Below, piece by piece: positions 20,056 to 29,748 of a stretch of 64,000 bases of DNA. The notes under the pieces were generated by a model. The model made no database searches, had not been told where the DNA came from, and saw only the letters and a program-made list of their open reading frames with translations. Numbering within the stretch: position 1 is the first letter of the stretch; each line of letters opens with the position of its first letter. Made by a program: the position numbers and the translations under genes. Source of the stretch: a virus (taxonomy: Duplodnaviria; Caudoviricetes); the IMG/VR virus record IMGVR_UViG_3300008262_000001; one strand, 5' to 3'.

Positions 20056-20541
20056 TCAGACAAGATAGCAAAGCCAATTTTCATTGACTTTTGCAAAATT
20101 CCTCATGAAGTAGTTGTAAGCTGGTTTGAATGGAATCTGTCTCAGTTTCATTCCTGCTTCATCCGGTGTTCGATCACCTTTAAAACAATTACACTTTGTA
20201 CAACATGTGCCCATGTTTTCCCAAGTGTTAGATCCTCCTCTTGATTTAGGAAGAATATGATCAATGGTTAGATCTCTTTTTGCACCACAATATAAACACA
20301 TAAAGCCGTCCCTTTTAAATATGTTGTCTCTTGAAGGATTGAATTTTTTAAAGGGCAATACAACATATTTCAGAAGTCTAATTACTGAAGGTCTCTTATA
20401 AACTTTTTTATCAGTGATTATTGGATTTTCTTCAATGTGCTCAATAATTTCAGCTTTGCCTTTGAATACAAGTTTGAATCCCCTAATCATATCTGTTATA
20501 CTTACTGGAGTATAATCATTATTCAAGACAAGAACTTGCAT
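20056..20541 (-). CDS. HNH endonuclease (McrA-like)
   Basis: RDGFMCLYCG, TIDHILPKSRGG, WENMGTCCTKCN. Confidence 0.9.
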   Translation of the reverse strand: MQVLVLNNDYTPVSITDMIRGFKLVFKGKAEIIEHIEENPIITDKKVYKRPSVIRLLKYVVLPFKKFNPSRDNIFKRDGFMCLYCGAKRDLTIDHILPKSRGGSNTWENMGTCCTKCNCFKGDRTPDEAGMKLRQIPFKPAYNYFMRNFAKVNENWLCYLV

Positions 20542-22754: not shown

Positions 22755-23324
22755 TTATTTTAAAAACCGAAGAATTTTTTCTTTAATACCCACCTGCTTG
22801 ATTCCTTCATTTCCCCTTGGAGTATGGACAAAATTTTCTAATCCCCATTCGTGGATAAATTCCATCGAATAAGATTTGACAATCTTACCCATATTGAGAT
22901 CGTCCACTGCAACCCAATTGGTTACTTCAGGATGGCTTTCAAGCCAGGTCATAATTTCCAAGCTTCTTGTGCCCTCAGAATCCCAGTCTCTGTGCCAAGT
23001 AGCTTTAGCTGGATCAATTATGTTTCCGGTGAAAGCAATGGGTTTTTTTATAATTCCCTGCATTTCATAATACAATCCCATTTCTTCAAGATTACAGAAG
23101 TGCTGCCAATCTGAACTCACGACTATTTCAGCATCTGTTTCTAAAAGGATTTTATTTAGAACACCAATTGCTTTTTTGTTGAAATTATCAAATCTGAATT
23201 CAACTGGTACACTCCTTTCTCCACCTGGATTTGGATTAGAGTAAGCTTTAGTTTTTTTCAATCTACTTCCCCATTCTGATGACAAACAGATAACACCATC
23301 ATGGTCTAAAAACAGAATTTTCAT
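22755..23324 (-). CDS. HAD phosphatase, Swiss-Army-Knife RNA-repair-like (HAD_SAK_2 type)
   Basis: MKILFLDHDGV (DxD), IVVSSDW, WVAVDD; TATATTTG promoter at 23329-23336. Confidence 0.8.
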   Translation of the reverse strand: MKILFLDHDGVICLSSEWGSRLKKTKAYSNPNPGGERSVPVEFRFDNFNKKAIGVLNKILLETDAEIVVSSDWQHFCNLEEMGLYYEMQGIIKKPIAFTGNIIDPAKATWHRDWDSEGTRSLEIMTWLESHPEVTNWVAVDDLNMGKIVKSYSMEFIHEWGLENFVHTPRGNEGIKQVGIKEKILRFLK

Positions 23325-23382
23325 AATACAAATATAAAAAAATAGCACCGAAAGGATATATATTTTACTAAAAAAATCATCA

Positions 23383-24786
23383 ATGGAAAAAAACATTCTC
23401 AGATTTAGTAGCTACTTGGAAACACTTAGCGGAACAATCAATGAAAGCGAAACTTCAATCAAAACAATTTCACAAATAATCTCTGCTTACACTAAACTTT
23501 ATATGTTTCTCGTTTCAAAGTCTCCTAATTACAAAGATGTAGTTACTGATTTGATTGAGGTTAACGAAGAAAAAGACCCAGCTAAAAGAGGTGAGAAAAT
23601 GGCCGCTATGCTTAACAAGGTAGCTGAAACTGTTGATGCTAAGTATGCAGATGTTAAAACTGGTATTAAAGATCTTGCTAAGAAAATTGGGGATTTATTT
23701 ACTTCAGTTGCATCAAGTGAAGATGCTAAGAGTAAGAAAGAGGTAATAGACACAGCAATAGCTACACAAATATTCGGATATAGAGATATTGCTAAAAAAG
23801 AAGGAACTAACGAAAATATTCAAGGATTAGGTAAAAACCACGTTCAAATGTTTGAGCAGTTCACTTACCCTCTTCTATTCGAAAAGAAAACATTTGAAGA
23901 TGAAAGAGAGGATTTGGTTCAACAAATGAAGCCAACCTACACTGAAATGCAGCTTCAGAAAACTAATCCTAGTACAGAAACACTTAAAGCTAAAGCTGAA
24001 GAAGTGGTAAAAAGATTTGATGAAATTACCAAGCTTCTGAAAACTGAAGAAGAGTGGGAAAAAATGAAAAACAAAAAAGCTAGAAAAGAAAAGATTAAGG
24101 AACTGGGTGAAGAAATAGCTAAAACATCTGAAGAGGTTAGTAAAATACAAAAAGATGAGCTTTTCAAAATTGGTATTGAAAAGAAAACCGCTGAAGACTT
24201 ATCTAGCGTGATAACTGGAATAGCAGAACTTGAGAAAAAAGCTAAAGTCGTTGATGATGCAGTTTTAGCTAAAGCAGGAAGAGACACATTTCATTCTTCT
24301 CTAAAAGTTGGTGATACAGTTAAATACAAAAAAGATGATGGAACTGAAGCTGAGGGGGAAATCAGTAAAATAGTAGGTATAGGAGACGAGGCTAAATACA
24401 CCTTTAAAGATAAGGAAGGAAATCTTTTTGCTAAAACAGGGGATCAGATTATCTCAAAGGTCGAAAAAACAGAAGACAAAAAAGAAGAAGAGAAAAAAGA
24501 GTCTACTTTAAAATTAGAAAAAACGATCAAAGCAACTGGATCTTCACCAACAGGTGAAAATCTAGAACTAACCAAAAAGGTTTTCTCTTTGATATATGAT
24601 AAATTTACTGATAATAAAGAAATATCAGCTATGGAAGAATGGAAAAAATCCAACTTCGGCAAAACTAGTAAATTCTTCATAGGACCAAGCAGAACAGCAG
24701 TCATTAAAGCTATCAAGAAAGAGTATGGTTTAGAAGCAAAAAATGGAGATATCACCCCAGAATTGGTTCAAAAACTATCAGCATAA
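23383..24786 (+). CDS. CTS-like late coiled-coil protein with KOW-like motif
   Basis: MEKNILRFSSYLE; LKVGDTVKYK; GATATATA 23355-23362. Confidence 0.7.
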   Translation: MEKNILRFSSYLETLSGTINESETSIKTISQIISAYTKLYMFLVSKSPNYKDVVTDLIEVNEEKDPAKRGEKMAAMLNKVAETVDAKYADVKTGIKDLAKKIGDLFTSVASSEDAKSKKEVIDTAIATQIFGYRDIAKKEGTNENIQGLGKNHVQMFEQFTYPLLFEKKTFEDEREDLVQQMKPTYTEMQLQKTNPSTETLKAKAEEVVKRFDEITKLLKTEEEWEKMKNKKARKEKIKELGEEIAKTSEEVSKIQKDELFKIGIEKKTAEDLSSVITGIAELEKKAKVVDDAVLAKAGRDTFHSSLKVGDTVKYKKDDGTEAEGEISKIVGIGDEAKYTFKDKEGNLFAKTGDQIISKVEKTEDKKEEEKKESTLKLEKTIKATGSSPTGENLELTKKVFSLIYDKFTDNKEISAMEEWKKSNFGKTSKFFIGPSRTAVIKAIKKEYGLEAKNGDITPELVQKLSA

Positions 24787-25172: not shown

Positions 25173-25178
25173 AGGAAG

Positions 25179-25262
25179 TACCCGGGACGGGAATCGAACC
25201 CGTACAACCAAATGGTTACAGCATTTTAAGTGCTGCGTGACTACCAATTCCACCACCCGGGC
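25179..25262 (-). tRNA. trnL: tRNA-Leu(TAA)
   Basis: GCCCGGG/CCCGGGT acceptor, CAGCA-CTTAAAA-TGCTG anticodon arm, long variable arm, GGTTCGA T-loop; no encoded CCA. Confidence 0.95.
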
Positions 25263-25265
25263 AAA

Positions 25266-25341
25266 TGGTCGAGACAATGAGACTTGAACTCATAGCCTTG
25301 ATCGTATAAGGATCCTGCTCTTACCATTGAGCTATGTCTCG
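25266..25341 (-). tRNA. trnI: tRNA-Ile(TAT), encoded CCA
   Basis: CGAGACA/TGTCTCG acceptor, GCTC/GAGC D-stem, anticodon loop CTTATAC, ATGAG-TTCAAGT-CTCAT T-arm, A73-CCA. Confidence 0.88.
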
Positions 25342-25353
25342 ATTTTAAAAATG

Positions 25354-25428
25354 TGTTCCCTGTAGGGATCGAACCTACGACCTACGGTTTATGAGACCGT
25401 TGCTACTAACCAACTGAGCTAAGGGAAC
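25354..25428 (-). tRNA. tRNA with CAT anticodon (elongator Met or lysidine Ile2)
   Basis: GTTCCCT/AGGGAAC acceptor (G1-C72 paired, so not initiator), ACGGT-CTCATAA-ACCGT, GTAGG-TTCGATC-CCTAC. Confidence 0.9.
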
Positions 25429-25429
25429 T

Positions 25430-26080
25430 TTATGATAAATATTTTGTGGGAATTTCATATATTCCTCTTCTTATCTGTTCAATCTCCTCTTTTTTGATTA
25501 TTATAAGATTATTTACGCATTTCCACTTTTCTCTATCACGATCTCTTTCATAGCCTTTTACCTCGATATAAGCATCAATTTTTGGCAAATAAAAATCAGG
25601 AAAATAGTAATGAATATTCCCTATCCAAAAATAGTCGAATGGTTTTGTAATTTTATTTGTCCATTGTATTTCATGAATGTCGAGCCATTTTGCTACATCT
25701 AGCTCCCATTTTCCTTTAAGCTTAAATCCCTTATATTCAAAAATTTTAGTTCTACCTGAAACGTTATTAGCTGAATAAGAGTGTGGGTTTTCAAGAACTG
25801 TTTTTTTCATTTTTTCTGAATGCTTTTTTTTCCTTTCAAGTGTCCATTTTTCACCCTTTTTAGAGTCTGATATTTTTTTTCTGGTTTCTTGGGCTAATAA
25901 AGGAAATGAGAGCCCCATTTCTTTAGATTTTATATATTGATTGGAAGCATTAGATTTTTTTCCAAACATTGGGTTATTTTCTCCAGCTTTACTCTTTCTT
26001 TCTGGATTCATTTTGCAATAAGACTCGTGATTTTTTAATCCAAATATATTTTTATCTTCTTTACAATATTTACAATTCAT
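25430..26080 (-). CDS. Free-standing homing-endonuclease-like protein (Zn finger, NUMOD3-like, PD-(D/E)xK) within the tRNA cluster
   Basis: CKYC...H...C; GENNPMFGKK; ETRKKIS; FPDFYLP...IEVKG. Confidence 0.75.
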   Translation of the reverse strand: MNCKYCKEDKNIFGLKNHESYCKMNPERKSKAGENNPMFGKKSNASNQYIKSKEMGLSFPLLAQETRKKISDSKKGEKWTLERKKKHSEKMKKTVLENPHSYSANNVSGRTKIFEYKGFKLKGKWELDVAKWLDIHEIQWTNKITKPFDYFWIGNIHYYFPDFYLPKIDAYIEVKGYERDRDREKWKCVNNLIIIKKEEIEQIRRGIYEIPTKYLS

Positions 26081-26100
26081 ACTAAACTATATATAAAAAG

Positions 26101-26172
26101 TACCCCTGGCGGGAATCGAACCCACATTTTGAGATTAGAAGTCACATGTTCTATCCGTTGAACTACGGGGGC
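26101..26172 (-). tRNA. trnR: tRNA-Arg(TCT)
   Basis: GCCCCCG/CAGGGGT acceptor, GTTC/GAAC D-stem, loop CTTCTAA, GTGGG-TTCGATT-CCCGC. Confidence 0.93.
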
Positions 26173-27296: not shown

Positions 27297-28919
27297 TCAG
27301 GATTCTATAGAATCCCAAATGTCAATAATTGCTTTTGCAAAGACAGGTTCTTTTCCTGTCCAACCTGATAAAATTGCACCTCTATAAAGATTTTCTGGAA
27401 GAACTGAATTATCGTATCCAGCAACCTGAACAGAGAAGACATTTACTTTAGGATTCACCTTCTTTCTGTAAACTTCAACCATCTTTAAAACATCTACGTG
27501 TGTGGATGAACTAGTTGTTCCATAAGGAGATCTGCCAACAGTGTTTGAAAATCCGAAAAGACCACCGTGTCCCGCTTGCATATCAGAGTAAATGAAGACC
27601 GTATCGTAGTGAATCTTTTCTGTGATGGCTTGATCCCAAAATACCCAAATACCATTCTCAGTAGATCCCCCTTGCATTTTTCCTCTTTGTGATGTCTCTT
27701 CCAGTTGTGTGAGTAGACCATTTCTTTTAGAGATCTCTTCTAATGAAAGTTTATCACCAAAAACACCAACAAGACCTTGGTCTGCTTGCATTGCAGTAAT
27801 TAAAGAAGAAAGGTTTGCAATTTCTGCTACGGTAACTGATCCATATTCACTCTGACAAGATCCCCAAGCAGAACCTGAATTGTCAGACAGACAAGCAACT
27901 TTACCCTTAAGCTTAGGCATATTTGCTACTGCTATATCTAAGCATTCTTCTAAAGCATCAAGTATTAGTCTTTTGTTGTTTACTTCTTCTGAAGACTTAA
28001 CTGCTTTATAAGCTGACCAATATCTAAATGGGAATTGCTTTCCTTTCAAAACTCCAGATTTTAATCCATCTAGAATTTTAACGGTGGTATCAAGATCTGA
28101 TATCTCTTTGAAAATTCCTCTTAGGTTTTTCAGAAGAGCCATATGAGGAACTGTAATTTGCTTCAAAATCTCTTGCCAGTTTTTACCTGCAGACTTAAGA
28201 CTTTCCCAGGTCATTTCAGTTTCTAAAATATTGAGCTTACCAGTTGTCATAAGCTCACTGATGTCATCATTAGAAGCATGAGATATTCTTACTAGGTCAA
28301 TGAGTTTTTTGCCCTTGTACTTGTTGAGCTGATATCTGCTATACTCTTCTAATCTTTCCGCCCATGTACGTTTAATTAAGGATGGAAGCTTTGATTTTGT
28401 TCCATTCTTAAACATGTAATAGTCAAACTGGTTAGTTAAGTCATCAGGTCTTTCTGCAATTTTCTTCCCGATGTTTTTCATATAACCAGGATTCATCTCA
28501 TTAAAAGATTTCCTGCTCTCGTGAGAAAGTGCCCTAACAAATATAACCGAAGGGTTTAATCTCATAAGATATTCAGTCCTGAGTTCTAGGGCTAAGTCCA
28601 ATGTAGCTTGGAAATCAAAAGAAAGCGAATTGTCGATTGCCTGCTCAAAAACATCCACTGCAGATCTTTTATCTTTGAATAGATCCGGGAAAATTGAATG
28701 GTCTATAATCGTAGAGATATTTTTGATTGTAGCATTAGAATTGATCCCATCCCGATAATATTGAGGTTCTCCAAAAATCGAAGAAGCTGCTACAATTTTC
28801 AATGTTTGTAAAGGAGAAATCTTGTAAGATGTTCCTGACATGAAATTCTGAACTTTGTCTCCAGAGTTTTTTCTAGACAAAGCTGTTTCTTTAATACCAA
28901 ATTCGCTTAATTTAGACAT
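27297..28919 (-). CDS. rsr: Ro60-like TROVE + VWA RNA-binding protein
   Basis: 540 aa; LALELRTEYLMRLNP, VPHMALLKNLR, QFPFRYWSAY; VWA MIDAS ACLSDNSGS; FIYSDMQ. Confidence 0.9.
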   Translation of the reverse strand: MSKLSEFGIKETALSRKNSGDKVQNFMSGTSYKISPLQTLKIVAASSIFGEPQYYRDGINSNATIKNISTIIDHSIFPDLFKDKRSAVDVFEQAIDNSLSFDFQATLDLALELRTEYLMRLNPSVIFVRALSHESRKSFNEMNPGYMKNIGKKIAERPDDLTNQFDYYMFKNGTKSKLPSLIKRTWAERLEEYSRYQLNKYKGKKLIDLVRISHASNDDISELMTTGKLNILETEMTWESLKSAGKNWQEILKQITVPHMALLKNLRGIFKEISDLDTTVKILDGLKSGVLKGKQFPFRYWSAYKAVKSSEEVNNKRLILDALEECLDIAVANMPKLKGKVACLSDNSGSAWGSCQSEYGSVTVAEIANLSSLITAMQADQGLVGVFGDKLSLEEISKRNGLLTQLEETSQRGKMQGGSTENGIWVFWDQAITEKIHYDTVFIYSDMQAGHGGLFGFSNTVGRSPYGTTSSSTHVDVLKMVEVYRKKVNPKVNVFSVQVAGYDNSVLPENLYRGAILSGWTGKEPVFAKAIIDIWDSIES

Positions 28920-28945
28920 GAGAGTTGTGGTTTAAATTACACAAT

Positions 28946-28986
28946 AAAAAAGGATCTAGAATGTGAAAAATCTCACACTTAGATCC
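28946..28986 (-). terminator. Strong terminator-like hairpin between the Y-RNA-like array and the TROVE start
   Basis: GGATCTA-AGTGTGA-GATTTT-TCACATT-C-TAGATCC-TTTTTT. Confidence 0.7.
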
Positions 28987-29015
28987 CAGAATTTTTATGA
29001 CTATTGCTAGTCTTT

Positions 29016-29091
29016 AAAAAAAATCCGAGAATATTAGTTTTGGGTTTTTTTCGATAATAAGTGAAGTATCCCAAAACACCGCTTCAGATTT
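29016..29091 (-). ncRNA. Y-RNA-like ncRNA B (minimal form, 3' U tail)
   Basis: AAATCTGA/TCGGATTT stem, AGCGGT internal loop, GTTTTGGG/CCCAAAAC stem, ATACTTCAC motif shared with RNA A; adjacent to the Ro60 gene. Confidence 0.6.
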
Positions 29092-29104
29092 AGTTATTTC
29101 TTTG

Positions 29105-29320
29105 TTTCTTGAGAAATCTTTAAAAGGGATTGCTAATTACGTTAGCTAGTCGTACCCTAATTTCTAGGCCGGTATAATGACCCGATCTACTGTGGTTTTC
29201 CTTTGCAGGCGTTTTTTCTGTAGCACTACTAAAACCTTTGTGCCTTGTACTAATCTTGGGGATTAATACTCAGCTTTTTTTGCGTAATTGTGGAGTATCC
29301 TTCTAAACCGCTTCAAGAAA
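29105..29320 (-). ncRNA. Y-RNA-like ncRNA A (about 216 nt) with multi-branched, pseudoknotted inner domain
   Basis: TTTCTTGA/TCAAGAAA, AGCGGT loop, TTAGAAGGAT/ATCCCTTTTAA, ATACTCCAC, AATTACG/CGTAATT; inner hairpins and GGTTTT/AAAACC pairing. Confidence 0.6.
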
Positions 29321-29351
29321 AAAAGAATAAGAAATGAAAGAACGTTTTATT

Positions 29352-29380
29352 TTGATACCGCTAATGTAATACAAAGTTTC
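29352..29380 (-). promoter_or_regulatory. GAAAC-N18-TATCAA promoter candidate for the Y-RNA-like array
   Basis: GAAAC 29380-29376, TATCAA 29357-29352; boxA-like GTTCTTTCA follows at 29343-29335. Confidence 0.45.
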
Positions 29381-29693
29381 AATTTAGATTCTCCTGGAGG
29401 AAAATTTTTATTTGATCTTCTGATTTTACTCCTGAAAATCTAGCAACTTCTTTACCCTCACTGGTGATCACACATGTTGGAATATTTTTAATTCCAAACT
29501 TTTTAGTTGTTAGTTGAGCCTCTCCAACATCTGCCTTTACGAAATTGAAATCGTTTTGAAATTCTTCTGACACTTTCTCCAATGTTGGTTTTATAATTTT
29601 GCAAGGTCCACACCAATCTGCAGAAAATAGGATAAAAGATTTCTGTGAAGAATCAATTACTTTTTCTAGTTCTTGGTCTTTAAGACTATTCAT
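29379..29693 (-). CDS. trxA: Thioredoxin
   Basis: FSADWCGPCK, FGIKNIPT; start re-assigned to MNSLKD. Confidence 0.92.
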   Translation of the reverse strand: MNSLKDQELEKVIDSSQKSFILFSADWCGPCKIIKPTLEKVSEEFQNDFNFVKADVGEAQLTTKKFGIKNIPTCVITSEGKEVARFSGVKSEDQIKIFLQENLN

Positions 29694-29748
29694 TTTGTTT
29701 GAGTTATTTAGTAGTCTATATAACCTCAAAGACTTTGAACTTCAATCT

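What the first reader, a model, noticed from the sequence alone, without database searches (positions are those of the whole stretch)
29016..29320. Two tandem Y-RNA-like RNAs upstream of a phage Ro60, sharing a conserved stem/loop module
Seen: two elements in the 460-nt gap upstream of the TROVE gene share the architecture terminal stem-TGA-AGCGGT loop-second stem-GGATACT(T/C)CAC...TTCTC. Stem sequences differ but stay complementary (TTTCTTGA/TCAAGAAA vs AAATCTGA/TCGGATTT; TTAGAAGGAT/ATCCCTTTTAA vs GTTTTGGG/CCCAAAAC), which is internal covariation. B ends in an oligo-U tail. Established: bacterial Ro60 (Rsr) genes are flanked by Y RNA genes (Yrn1, YrlA/YrlB) that tether Ro to effectors such as PNPase. 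Inference: a phage-encoded Ro RNP with two RNA partners. Neither carries the GGTTCGA T-arm of the tRNA-mimic YrlA class, so these may be a separate Y RNA class.
Basis: partly seen in the sequence, partly recalled or inferred. Interest (0 to 1): 0.82.

Follow-up and report, generated by a model that had tools for sequence, protein, structure and literature searches.

The report
Two phage Y RNAs beside Ro60
A freshwater phage encodes the ring-shaped RNA-binding protein Ro60 and, just upstream, two small structured RNAs that carry the same conserved "handle" as the Y RNAs of other phages but lack their tRNA-like body; this is a real, unannotated variant of a known kind of system.

Summary
Two minus-strand elements, A (29320-29105, 216 nt) and B (29091-21, 71 nt plus a U tail), share a two-helix module. 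Its order is terminal stem, AGCGGU loop, second stem, AUACUYCAC, then AUUUC/AUAUUC before the closing strand.

A covariance model built from B-type copies finds this module beside TROVE/Ro60 genes:
- in 43 of 49 related viral contigs, always on the gene's strand;
- in 35 of 80 TROVE loci on bacterial-genome or MAG contigs.

All 16 base pairs show compensatory changes. Some copies sit inside tRNA gene arrays.

In Bacillus phage G and Arthrobacter phage Atuin the same handle encloses a YrlA-type tRNA-like core. In other relatives it encloses a native-order tRNA-like domain.

The window RNAs are therefore Y RNAs related to YrlA. B has lost the tRNA core. A has replaced it with a structured domain of about 165 nt.

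Metatranscriptome contigs from two studies cover only A.

Binding to the phage Ro60 is inferred, not shown. No Rfam family matches. This scan has found the same family before on other DNA.

Verdict: a new variant of a known kind, of moderate interest.

The parts
29105..29320 (-). Y-like RNA A (216 nt). Handle: S1 29320-29313 with 29112-29105; AGCGGU 29312-29307; S2 29306-29297 with 29130-29120; AUACUCCAC 29298-29290; 3' internal loop AGAUUUC 29119-29113. The handle encloses a structured body of about 165 nt.
   Evidence: R2 hit of 41.0 bits, E 1.4e-7, full model. RNAalifold on MAFFT alignments of 10 to 15 A-type homologues recovers S1 and S2 independently, plus three inner helices with compensatory changes. 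RNA-library contigs at 29077-29272 and 29101-29271.
29021..29091 (-). Y-like RNA B (71 nt, minimal form). S1 29091-29084 with 29028-29021; AGCGGU 29083-29078; S2 29077-29070 with 29044-29037; AUACUUCAC 29069-29061; A-rich apical loop with CGAAAAAAA; 3' internal loop UAAUAUUC 29036-29029.
   Evidence: R1 79.2 bits and R2 72.2 bits. The MFE fold equals the model structure. Covariation across 54 distinct copies.
29016..29020 (-). Five further U after B. With the UUU of S1 they make an 8-U run.
   Evidence: Read from the sequence. Not conserved in B-type relatives.
28945..28987 (-). Terminator-like element: a 16-bp hairpin (28987-28951) plus U6 (28950-28945). It ends about 25 nt before the TROVE ATG.
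   Evidence: Fold z-score -4.56; 0 of 200 shuffles fold as well. A hairpin plus U run at the same position, with a different stem sequence, is present in all 18 other loci examined.
27297..28919 (-). TROVE/Ro60 homologue, 540 aa (P0001).
   Evidence: Pfam TROVE. phrog_850 'RNA-binding protein' at 6e-44. Profile hits to PDB 9KOP, 9NEN, 1YVP and 2NVO. 50% identity to Bacillus phage G gp540.
25178..26172 (-). The record's only four tRNA genes (Leu-UAA, Ile-UAU, Met-CAU, Arg-UCU), on the same strand about 1.1 kb downstream of TROVE.
   Evidence: ARAGORN and Rfam. Whole-record search. In relatives, handle RNAs lie inside such arrays.

Best explanation
A and B are phage-encoded Y RNAs, that is, small non-coding partners of the phage Ro60 (TROVE) protein.

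Transcription (inferred). Both are transcribed from the minus strand as a unit of their own. That unit ends at a conserved hairpin plus U-run terminator about 25 nt before the TROVE start codon. TROVE is then probably read by read-through, which would keep the RNAs in excess over the protein.

Fold (shown by covariation). In each RNA the 5' and 3' ends pair (S1). An asymmetric internal loop follows (AGCGGU opposite AUAUUC or AUUUC), then a second helix (S2), then the conserved (G/A)UACUYCA.

Handle (inferred from homology of position and motif). This handle corresponds to the Ro60-binding module, the anticodon-like stem and the YUAY of YrlA-type Y RNAs. It is the likely docking site for the Ro60 ring.

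Body. The part enclosed by S2 is the exchangeable effector module. In B it is a 25-nt A-rich single-stranded loop. In A it is a multi-helix domain of about 165 nt. In relatives it is a tRNA-like domain.

Function (inferred by analogy). In D. radiodurans the Rsr-Yrn1-PNPase complex, and in Thermus phage phiLo the Ro60-Yrl-PNPase complex, tether or gate Ro60 with respect to an exoribonuclease. The RNAs here would likewise tether or gate the phage Ro60 with respect to host exoribonucleases or tRNA-handling enzymes during infection. Different bodies would give RNPs with different partners.
For: Linkage.
- R1 gives 99 hits at E<=1 in the window plus 49 viral TROVE loci. Every hit is on the TROVE strand and lies from about 2.2 kb upstream of the TROVE match to about 1.1 kb beyond its end. 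43 of 49 loci are hit at E<=1e-3, and 3 of the 6 others hold no upstream DNA.
- R1 gives 49 hits in 35 of 80 TROVE loci from genome and MAG contigs, again all on the gene's strand.
- The window's own 175-kb record has only these two true copies.

Structure.
- All 16 pairs carry compensatory changes. 90.7% of cells are paired, against 40-52% in the slid controls.
- S1 and S2 are recovered on alignments that were not fitted to the model.
- G-U pairs fit only the minus strand.

Homology to Y RNAs.
- The same handle encloses a YrlA-type core in Bacillus phage G: R2 scores 42 bits on 1779-1936, and Rfam YrlA scores 36 bits on the core only.
- It also does so in Arthrobacter phage Atuin.
- It encloses tRNA-like domains in L032-L036 and L045.
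- The motif YGAAGCGG resembles GNCGAAN0-1G, and the following UUAC resembles YUAY, both described for YrlA (PMC4201824; bioRxiv 10.1101/312249).

Stand-alone RNA.
- Ten copies lie inside tRNA arrays, 1-8 nt from the neighbouring tRNAs.
- In other loci the copies lie downstream of TROVE.
- A terminator separates the RNAs from TROVE in 19 loci.

Expression. Metatranscriptome runs of two studies each give one contig on the 2.9-kb stretch. Both are 100% identical to it and lie within or across A (29077-29272 and 29101-29271). DNA runs cover the whole stretch.

The protein is a Ro60 homologue. A phage Ro60 has been shown to bind upstream Yrl RNAs (PMC12135203).
Against: - No binding data exist for this protein or these RNAs.
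- No Rfam family (Y_RNA, YrlA) matches A or B, even at E<=10.
- The C of the CGAA motif, which matters for phiLo Ro60 binding, is U in both window copies. In the family this position is simply a covarying base pair (CG 26, UA 23).
- Some family members lie far from any TROVE gene. Most of those records are small fragments, so dependence on Ro60 cannot be settled there.
- The RNA evidence consists of assembled contigs, not reads. They show neither ends nor strand, and they begin about 49 nt inside A. B itself is not covered.
- The promoter has not been identified.
Confidence: 0.8

Rival explanations
1. The elements are small RNAs of phage tRNA operons that act without Ro60. They might be tRNA-processing by-products, decoys or regulators that mimic tRNA parts. 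Their nearness to TROVE would then only reflect that TROVE genes sit in the tRNA region.
For: - Ten copies sit inside tRNA arrays with no TROVE in the held DNA.
- Seven of those records show no TROVE at all.
- Many copies carry tRNA-like bodies, and five of eleven have a Lys-UUU anticodon.
- The conserved GUUACUUCR doubles as the acceptor strand, U8 and the start of the D stem in several copies.
Against: - The seven records without TROVE are fragments, 3-19% complete. The three larger records (18%, 40% and 96% complete) all encode TROVE.
- In TROVE-anchored searches the handle is next to the gene in most loci across very different phages, at TROVE identity down to about 25%.
- The handle corresponds to the module described as the Ro60-binding part of YrlA.
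- B has no tRNA feature beyond the UUAC box.
Confidence: 0.1
2. The elements are cis-acting leader structures of the TROVE mRNA. They might be autoregulatory Ro60 binding sites or an attenuator, rather than free RNAs.
For: - In the window they lie in the 5' flank of TROVE.
- A terminator sits between them and the ATG, as in attenuators.
- No separate TROVE promoter was found in the 25 nt after the terminator.
Against: - In other loci the copies lie downstream of TROVE, 1-2 kb upstream with a gene in between, or inside tRNA arrays far from TROVE.
- There are up to 7 copies per locus.
- RNA contigs cover A alone and not the ORF.
- The closed-end stem architecture is that of a processed small RNA.
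Confidence: 0.06
3. The elements are DNA-level repeats, for example the ends of a mobile element, a protein-binding palindrome or a recombination site, and have no RNA function.
For: They are repeated and contain inverted repeats. Homing-endonuclease genes are nearby.
Against: - The orientation is strictly the same as TROVE and the tRNAs: 99 of 99 and 49 of 49 hits.
- G-U pairs would be A-C mismatches on the other strand.
- Stems covary while the unpaired loops are conserved, which is the pattern of an RNA.
- The stretch is present in RNA libraries.
Confidence: 0.02

Closest known systems
YrlA-type bacterial and phage Y RNAs (Rfam RF02553; Chen et al. 2014, PMC4201824; YrlA structure, bioRxiv 10.1101/312249)
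   Same: - Encoded beside a Ro60 orthologue on the same strand.
- The 5' and 3' ends pair.
- A GAAG-containing motif lies on the 5' strand, followed by a short unpaired stretch, a second stem and a conserved YUAY.
- The design is modular: a handle plus an effector domain.
- The very same handle flanks YrlA-type cores in Bacillus phage G and Arthrobacter phage Atuin.
   Different: - A and B have no T arm, acceptor-like stem-loop or D arm.
- The Rfam model does not align to the phage-type handle, even where the core matches.
- B is only 71 nt long.
- A carries an unrelated structured body of about 165 nt.
Salmonella YrlB, the second and shorter Y RNA of the rsr-yrlBA-rtcBA operon (as described in PMC4201824)
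   Same: A second Y RNA encoded next to a longer one. The paper says it carries the GNCGAAN0-1G motif.
   Different: No sequence or model of YrlB was available here, so homology was not tested. No RtcB is found in this phage record.
Thermus phage phiLo Ro60 with Yrl1 and Yrl2 (PDB 9KOP, 9L5Y; PMC12135203)
   Same: - A phage Ro60 with two Y-like RNAs directly upstream of the gene.
- A stem, bulge, stem layout with a (C)GAA motif.
- The phiLo protein is the best structural-database relative of this TROVE family (7e-31).
- Binding and a ternary complex with host PNPase were shown there.
   Different: - The phiLo RNAs were defined by folding one locus. Here the family is defined by covariation over more than 100 copies.
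- The window copies have UGAA, not CGAA.
- Sequence homology between the phiLo RNAs and this handle was not tested.
Deinococcus radiodurans Yrn1 (Rsr-Yrn1-PNPase, 'RYPER')
   Same: - The Ro-binding stem is formed by the RNA ends.
- According to PMC4201824, its tRNA-like features are in native order, with the Ro stem at the acceptor end. This is the layout of the tRNA-bearing relatives L033, L034 and L045.
- A single-stranded loop engages PNPase, which is a possible model for B's A-rich loop.
   Different: No sequence similarity was tested. Yrn1 is a cellular RNA.
Metazoan Y RNAs (Rfam RF00019)
   Same: A terminal stem with a UCCGA-like 5' strand, an internal loop, a second stem and a large loop.
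   Different: No Rfam hit at E<=10. The likeness of UCYGAAGCGG to GGUCCGAAGGU rests on my memory of the human Y1 sequence and was not tested.

Membership tests
Y RNA (Ro60-associated ncRNA, functional definition) | Encoded next to a Ro60/TROVE orthologue, on the same strand (the criterion used for bacterial and phage Y RNAs) | tested here: met
   A and B lie 102-401 nt upstream of TROVE on its strand. The family is linked to TROVE in 43 of 49 viral loci and 35 of 80 genome-contig loci, and every hit is on the gene's strand.
Y RNA (Ro60-associated ncRNA, functional definition) | The 5' and 3' ends pair into a long stem interrupted by an internal loop or bulge | tested here: met
   S1 and S2 with 16 of 16 covarying pairs. 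Independent RNAalifold support.
Y RNA (Ro60-associated ncRNA, functional definition) | A conserved Ro60-binding motif on the 5' strand (GGUCCGA in animals, GNCGAAN0-1G in YrlA) | tested here: inconclusive
   The family consensus is nnYGA-AGCGG. Some copies read GGCGAAG or UCCGAAG, but both window copies read UGAAG. The C/U position is a covarying pair.
Y RNA (Ro60-associated ncRNA, functional definition) | Physically bound by Ro60 | not testable with these tools
   There is no protein-RNA docking or binding assay here. Only an analogy to phiLo Ro60-Yrl binding is available (PMC12135203).
Y RNA (Ro60-associated ncRNA, functional definition) | Accumulates as a discrete small RNA | tested here: inconclusive
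   RNA-library contigs from two studies cover only A (29077-29272 and 29101-29271). Contigs cannot show ends, strand or level. B is not covered.
YrlA (Rfam RF02553) | A tRNA-like core: T arm, closed acceptor-like stem and D arm | tested here: not met
   No YrlA or tRNA hit in 28800-29500 at E<=10. The core is present in the relatives L171:1779-1936 and L261:5785-5925.
YrlA (Rfam RF02553) | Reaches the Rfam gathering score (69 bits) | tested here: not met
   No hit for A or B. Even the phage G and CcrColossus RNAs reach only 36 and 42 bits.
YrlA (Rfam RF02553) | A conserved YUAY just after the stem that extends from the Ro60-binding module (nt 22-25 in S. Typhimurium YrlA) | tested here: met
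   UUAC or AUAC at nt 23-26 of every copy. It is among the most conserved unpaired positions. The position is compared with the text of PMC4201824 and 10.1101/312249.
tRNA (RF00005) | A cloverleaf recognised by Rfam or ARAGORN | tested here: not met
   No hit in A or B. The feature is met inside copies from L032-L036 and L045.
Metazoan Y_RNA (RF00019) | A match to the covariance model | tested here: not met
   Not among the matches at E<=10.
Ro60/Rsr protein | A TROVE (HEAT-repeat ring) domain followed by a vWA-like domain | tested here: met
   Pfam TROVE at 3e-7. The profile of 13 family members hits 9KOP over residues 22-375 (7e-31), human RO60 over 177-468 (1e-9) and Xenopus Ro60 over 194-454 (1e-8). 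No 3D model was made.

The most novel reading that the evidence does not exclude
The handle is a universal Ro60 docking module onto which phages graft interchangeable cargos. The cargos seen here are an A-rich loop (B), a previously undescribed structured domain of about 165 nt (A), native-order tRNA look-alikes (often Lys-UUU) and permuted YrlA cores. One phage would then field a set of Ro60 particles with different targets. These could act, for example, as decoys or sensors for host anticodon nucleases, or as adaptors that steer host RNases and repair enzymes. A's body would be a new effector-binding fold.
Probability: 0.2. Interest if true: 0.8.

Novelty: new variant of a known kind. Interest (0 to 1): 0.5.

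Why it matters
Ro60-Y RNA particles occur from bacteria to humans, where Ro60 is a lupus and Sjogren autoantigen. Their function in bacteria and phages is still poorly understood.

This family offers more than a hundred natural variants of one handle with swapped bodies. The handle's fold is backed by covariation, so the binding site can be predicted precisely.

The family is also present in cultured phages (Bacillus phage G, Arthrobacter phage Atuin). Two questions therefore become directly testable: which part of a Y RNA binds Ro60, and what do the bodies recruit.

The family has no Rfam model, so these genes go unannotated in phage genomes.

Tried and rejected
- Rfam at gathering thresholds on the whole window, and at E<=10 on 28800-29500, gave only chance-level matches (RAGATH-27, snoRNAs, ciliate telomerase RNA at 14-23 bits). 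I rejected these.
- The consensus promoter and terminator scan found nothing in 28800-29500. It missed the hairpin terminator that folding shows.
- phmmer of the single protein against PDB found nothing. The profile search was needed.
- The simple DNA pattern scan of viral contigs was mostly chance. 56 of 80 loci had neither a model hit nor TROVE, so I did not use pattern counts.
- A third R1 hit in the phage record (C1:144649-144715, 19 bits) lacks AGCGG and UUAC. I rejected it.
- I searched for canonical YrlA in five bacterial genomes that hold related TROVE genes. Only sub-threshold, tRNA-like hits came back, which is uninformative.
- A positive control for full-length YrlA was not obtained. 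No control genome exceeded the cut-off, so the Rfam model's 5' and 3' handle consensus could not be compared directly.
- The supplementary tables of Chen et al. 2014 are not held. I could not check which phage G RNA they reported.
- RtcB is not found in the 63%-complete record.
- RNA contigs do not cover B or the TROVE ORF. This says nothing about absence.

Full report
**What is there**

The gap between a thioredoxin gene (29379-29729, minus strand) and a 540-aa TROVE gene (27297-28919, minus strand) holds two minus-strand elements.

- A spans 29320-29105.
- B spans 29091-29021 and is followed by five more U.

Both begin with an 8-nt strand ending in UGA, followed by AGCGGU. Next comes a second stem strand, then AUACUYCAC. 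At the 3' side come the partner of the second stem, then AGAUUUC (A) or UAAUAUUC (B), then the partner of the first strand.

The 26-nt shared pattern occurs exactly twice in the window, against 0.00 expected. The minimum-free-energy folds reproduce both stems, but they are only about 2 sd better than shuffles. Single-sequence folding alone would therefore not carry the claim.

**The protein**

- The ORF matches Pfam TROVE.
- It matches phrog_850 'RNA-binding protein' over its whole length at 6e-44.
- A profile of 13 family members hits the crystal structure of Thermus phage phiLo Ro60 (9KOP, 7e-31), human RO60 (1e-9), Xenopus Ro60 (1e-8) and D. radiodurans Rsr (3.5e-3).
- The nearest cultured relative is Bacillus phage G gp540, at 50% identity over the full length.

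The window belongs to a 175-kb viral record that is 63% complete. It carries tail-fibre and other phage genes. The DNA is found in freshwater lake metagenomes.

**Comparative test**

TROVE relatives were fetched from 49 viral contigs.

A motif look-up showed YGA-AGCGGU-N7-GUUAC(U/A)UC next to TROVE in most of them. The motif lies upstream in close relatives and downstream in distant ones, and is often present in two to four copies. The 8 nt before AGCGGU almost always have a perfect complement 60-290 nt downstream, with quite different sequences from locus to locus.

A covariance model (R1) was built from six 71-78-nt copies with the two-stem structure.

- It gave 99 hits at E<=1 over 412 kb on both strands. 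Every hit is on the TROVE strand and lies from about 2.2 kb upstream of the TROVE match to about 1.1 kb beyond its end.
- 43 of 49 loci are hit at E<=1e-3. Three of the six others hold no upstream DNA.

On 54 distinct copies, all 16 pairs show changes on both sides. 90.7% of cells are paired, against 40-52% with slid partners, and none of 500 shuffles reaches the observed covariation score.

That alignment is fitted to the model. However, MAFFT plus RNAalifold on the long copies recovers S1 and S2 independently. It adds three inner helices with compensatory changes.

The consensus, 5' to 3', is as follows:

- nnnnnYGA
- aGCGGn
- S2 (8 bp)
- (U/A)UAC(U/A)UCa
- variable body
- S2'
- nnAUAUUC
- UCRnnnnn

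The broader model R2 finds exactly two hits in the 64-kb window: B at 72 bits and the whole of A at 41 bits. The phage record has no further true copy.

The family also lies beside related TROVE genes on contigs assigned to Bacteroidota, Bacillota, Synergistota and Spirochaetota. That is 35 of 80 loci and 49 hits, all on the gene's strand. Many of these contigs may be phages binned into MAGs.

**What kind of RNA it is**

Three observations tie the handle to Y RNAs, beyond mere adjacency.

1. *tRNA-like bodies in distant viral relatives.* The body enclosed by S2 is recognised by Rfam and ARAGORN as tRNA-like, with GGUUCGA-type T loops. In some copies a whole tRNA follows UUACUUC. In others GUUACU-UC-R itself supplies the acceptor strand, U8/C9 and the first D-stem base, so that S2 stacks under the acceptor stem.

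2. *Bacillus phage G.* The RNA at L171:1779-1936 has the handle: UACCUGA-AGCGGU-AAAAGCAG-UUACUUCG ... CACUGUUUU-AAAUAAUC-UCAGGUA. The handle surrounds a T arm, a closed acceptor-like stem and a D arm. This is the permuted order that defines YrlA.
   - Rfam YrlA aligns to that core only (positions 23-86, 36 bits).
   - R2 scores the whole RNA at 42 bits.
   - Phage G has seven handle RNAs around gp540.
   - According to PMC12135203, Chen et al. 2014 had reported a Y-like RNA in phage G.

3. *Arthrobacter phage Atuin.* Its Ro-like protein is only about 25% identical to this one. It has four handle RNAs around the gene. Two are about 70-nt minimal forms that butt on tRNA genes, and one holds a YrlA-type core.

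Published descriptions of YrlA give the following layout (PMC4201824; bioRxiv 10.1101/312249):

- a 5' motif GNCGAAN0-1G;
- short unpaired linkers;
- an 'anticodon-like' stem at nt 15-27 and 83-93;
- a conserved YUAY at nt 22-25.

The phage handle has the same order and nearly the same spacing: GAAG at nt 7-10, S2 at nt 15-22 and UUAC at nt 23-26.

I therefore read A and B as YrlA-related Y RNAs. In B the tRNA core is absent. In A it is replaced by another structured domain. I did not test the handle against true Salmonella YrlA or YrlB sequences, because none was available here.

**Free RNA or leader?**

- A pattern scan of viral contigs was mostly noise. It nevertheless brought in 23 model-positive loci.
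- Thirteen of these have TROVE alongside.
- In the other ten the RNA sits inside a tRNA gene array, on the tRNA strand, 1-8 nt from its neighbours. RNase P and 3' processing of the flanking tRNAs would therefore release it.
- Of those ten records, the three most complete (18%, 40% and 96%) encode TROVE elsewhere. The other seven are 3-19% fragments.
- In the window, a 16-bp hairpin plus U6 (28987-28945; z -4.6) lies between B and the TROVE ATG. A hairpin plus U run stands at the same place, with unrelated stem sequences, in all 18 other loci examined.

These points argue for separately accumulating small RNAs rather than a cis-acting leader.

I infer the following, but have not shown it. The RNA unit ends at this terminator, and TROVE is read by read-through.

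**Expression**

Two metatranscriptome runs from different studies each contribute a single contig to the 2.9-kb stretch. Both are 100% identical to it.

- X19 covers 29077-29272.
- X20 covers 29101-29271.

Together they cover the 3' three-quarters of A, and X19 also runs across the 13-nt spacer into B. DNA runs cover the whole stretch.

X20 ends 4 nt beyond the predicted 3' end of A. Both contigs start about 49 nt inside A. That could be a processing site, a reverse-transcription stop or an assembly break.

Contigs cannot give strand, ends or level, so this is a hint of preferential accumulation of A and not proof.

**Mechanism and limits**

Shown:

- a conserved two-stem handle with conserved unpaired boxes;
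- strict linkage and co-orientation with Ro60 genes;
- exchangeable bodies, including two kinds of tRNA mimic.

Inferred:

- The handle docks on the phage Ro60.
- The bodies recruit or block partners. Models are the Rsr-Yrn1-PNPase complex and the phiLo Ro60-Yrl-PNPase complex (PMC12135203).
- B's A-rich loop would suit S1/KH-type single-strand binders.

The neighbourhood includes the record's only four tRNA genes and a HAD_SAK_2 'RNA repair' phosphatase. This fits an RNA-surveillance or RNA-repair role. RtcB is absent from the held record.

**Novelty**

- Y RNAs next to Ro60 in bacteria and phages are established (PMC4201824; PMC12135203).
- TROVE in jumbo phages with 'a tRNA-like partner' has been noted (PMC7824862).
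- I found no Rfam family and no paper describing this handle consensus, the core-less minimal form, the A-type body or the placement in tRNA arrays.
- Earlier agents of this scan reached the same reading on other phages. The family is therefore new to the literature I could search, but not new to this scan.

I rate it a new variant of a known kind, with interest 0.5.

Noticed in passing
window 28945-28987 (-); also L001-L044 about 30-70 nt before each TROVE start: A strong hairpin plus U run lies between the last Y-like RNA and the TROVE ATG. Its position is conserved but its sequence is not, in 19 loci. It implies a separate RNA transcription unit and possibly read-through control of TROVE.
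   Followed up: partly
L032:4868-4941, L033:4638-4710, L034:4992-5063, L036:1954-2029, L045:5187-5260: Five of eleven tRNA-like bodies inside handle RNAs carry a Lys-UUU anticodon, although L032 and L045 also encode an ordinary tRNA-Lys(UUU) in the adjacent array. From my own knowledge, tRNA-Lys(UUU) is a classic target of host anticodon nucleases, so a decoy or sensor role is conceivable.
   Followed up: no
L036:1826-1898 and L034:5167-5256: ARAGORN calls tRNA-like sequences with a UUA anticodon (read as 'Stop'). One of them lies inside a handle RNA. Phage G also has an annotated 'tRNA-other (tta)' (L171:8519-8593).
   Followed up: no
L035:881-1524: A ROOL RNA (Rfam RF03087, 284 bits) lies among tRNA genes about 1.5 kb upstream of the TROVE gene of a related phage. 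tmRNA genes lie in the same region in L048 and in Bacillus phage G.
   Followed up: no
window 29271-29272: The RNA-library contigs of two different studies both start here, about 49 nt inside A, just after an A7 run. This could be a processing site, an RT stop or an assembly break.
   Followed up: no
window 29045-29060 (-) and B-type copies in L003, L007, L013, L016, L027: The apical loop of the minimal (B-type) RNAs keeps an A-rich stretch with ACGAAAAA just before the 3' strand of S2. This is a second CGAA-like box of unknown role.
   Followed up: no
window 22755-23396 (-): An ORF with a HAD_SAK_2 domain ('HAD domain in Swiss Army Knife RNA repair proteins', 2e-19) lies about 3.9 kb from TROVE, beyond the tRNA cluster.
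   Followed up: no
window 25430-26080 (-): A NUMOD3 / phrog_15137 endonuclease gene is inserted between tRNA-Arg and the other three tRNAs. An HNH endonuclease lies at 20056-20541.
   Followed up: no
L171:2941-4000 (Bacillus phage G, NC_023719.1 406354-407413): The 1.06-kb stretch upstream of gp540, which is unannotated in the record, holds five handle RNAs. A sixth (the YrlA-type one) lies at L171:1779-1936 and a seventh after tRNA-Gly at L171:9361-9427.
   Followed up: partly
window 29340-29380 (-): The sequence ACATTAGCGGTAT, with a second AGCGGT about 50 nt upstream of A, is conserved in the two closest relatives (L001:2551, L037:2547).
   Followed up: no
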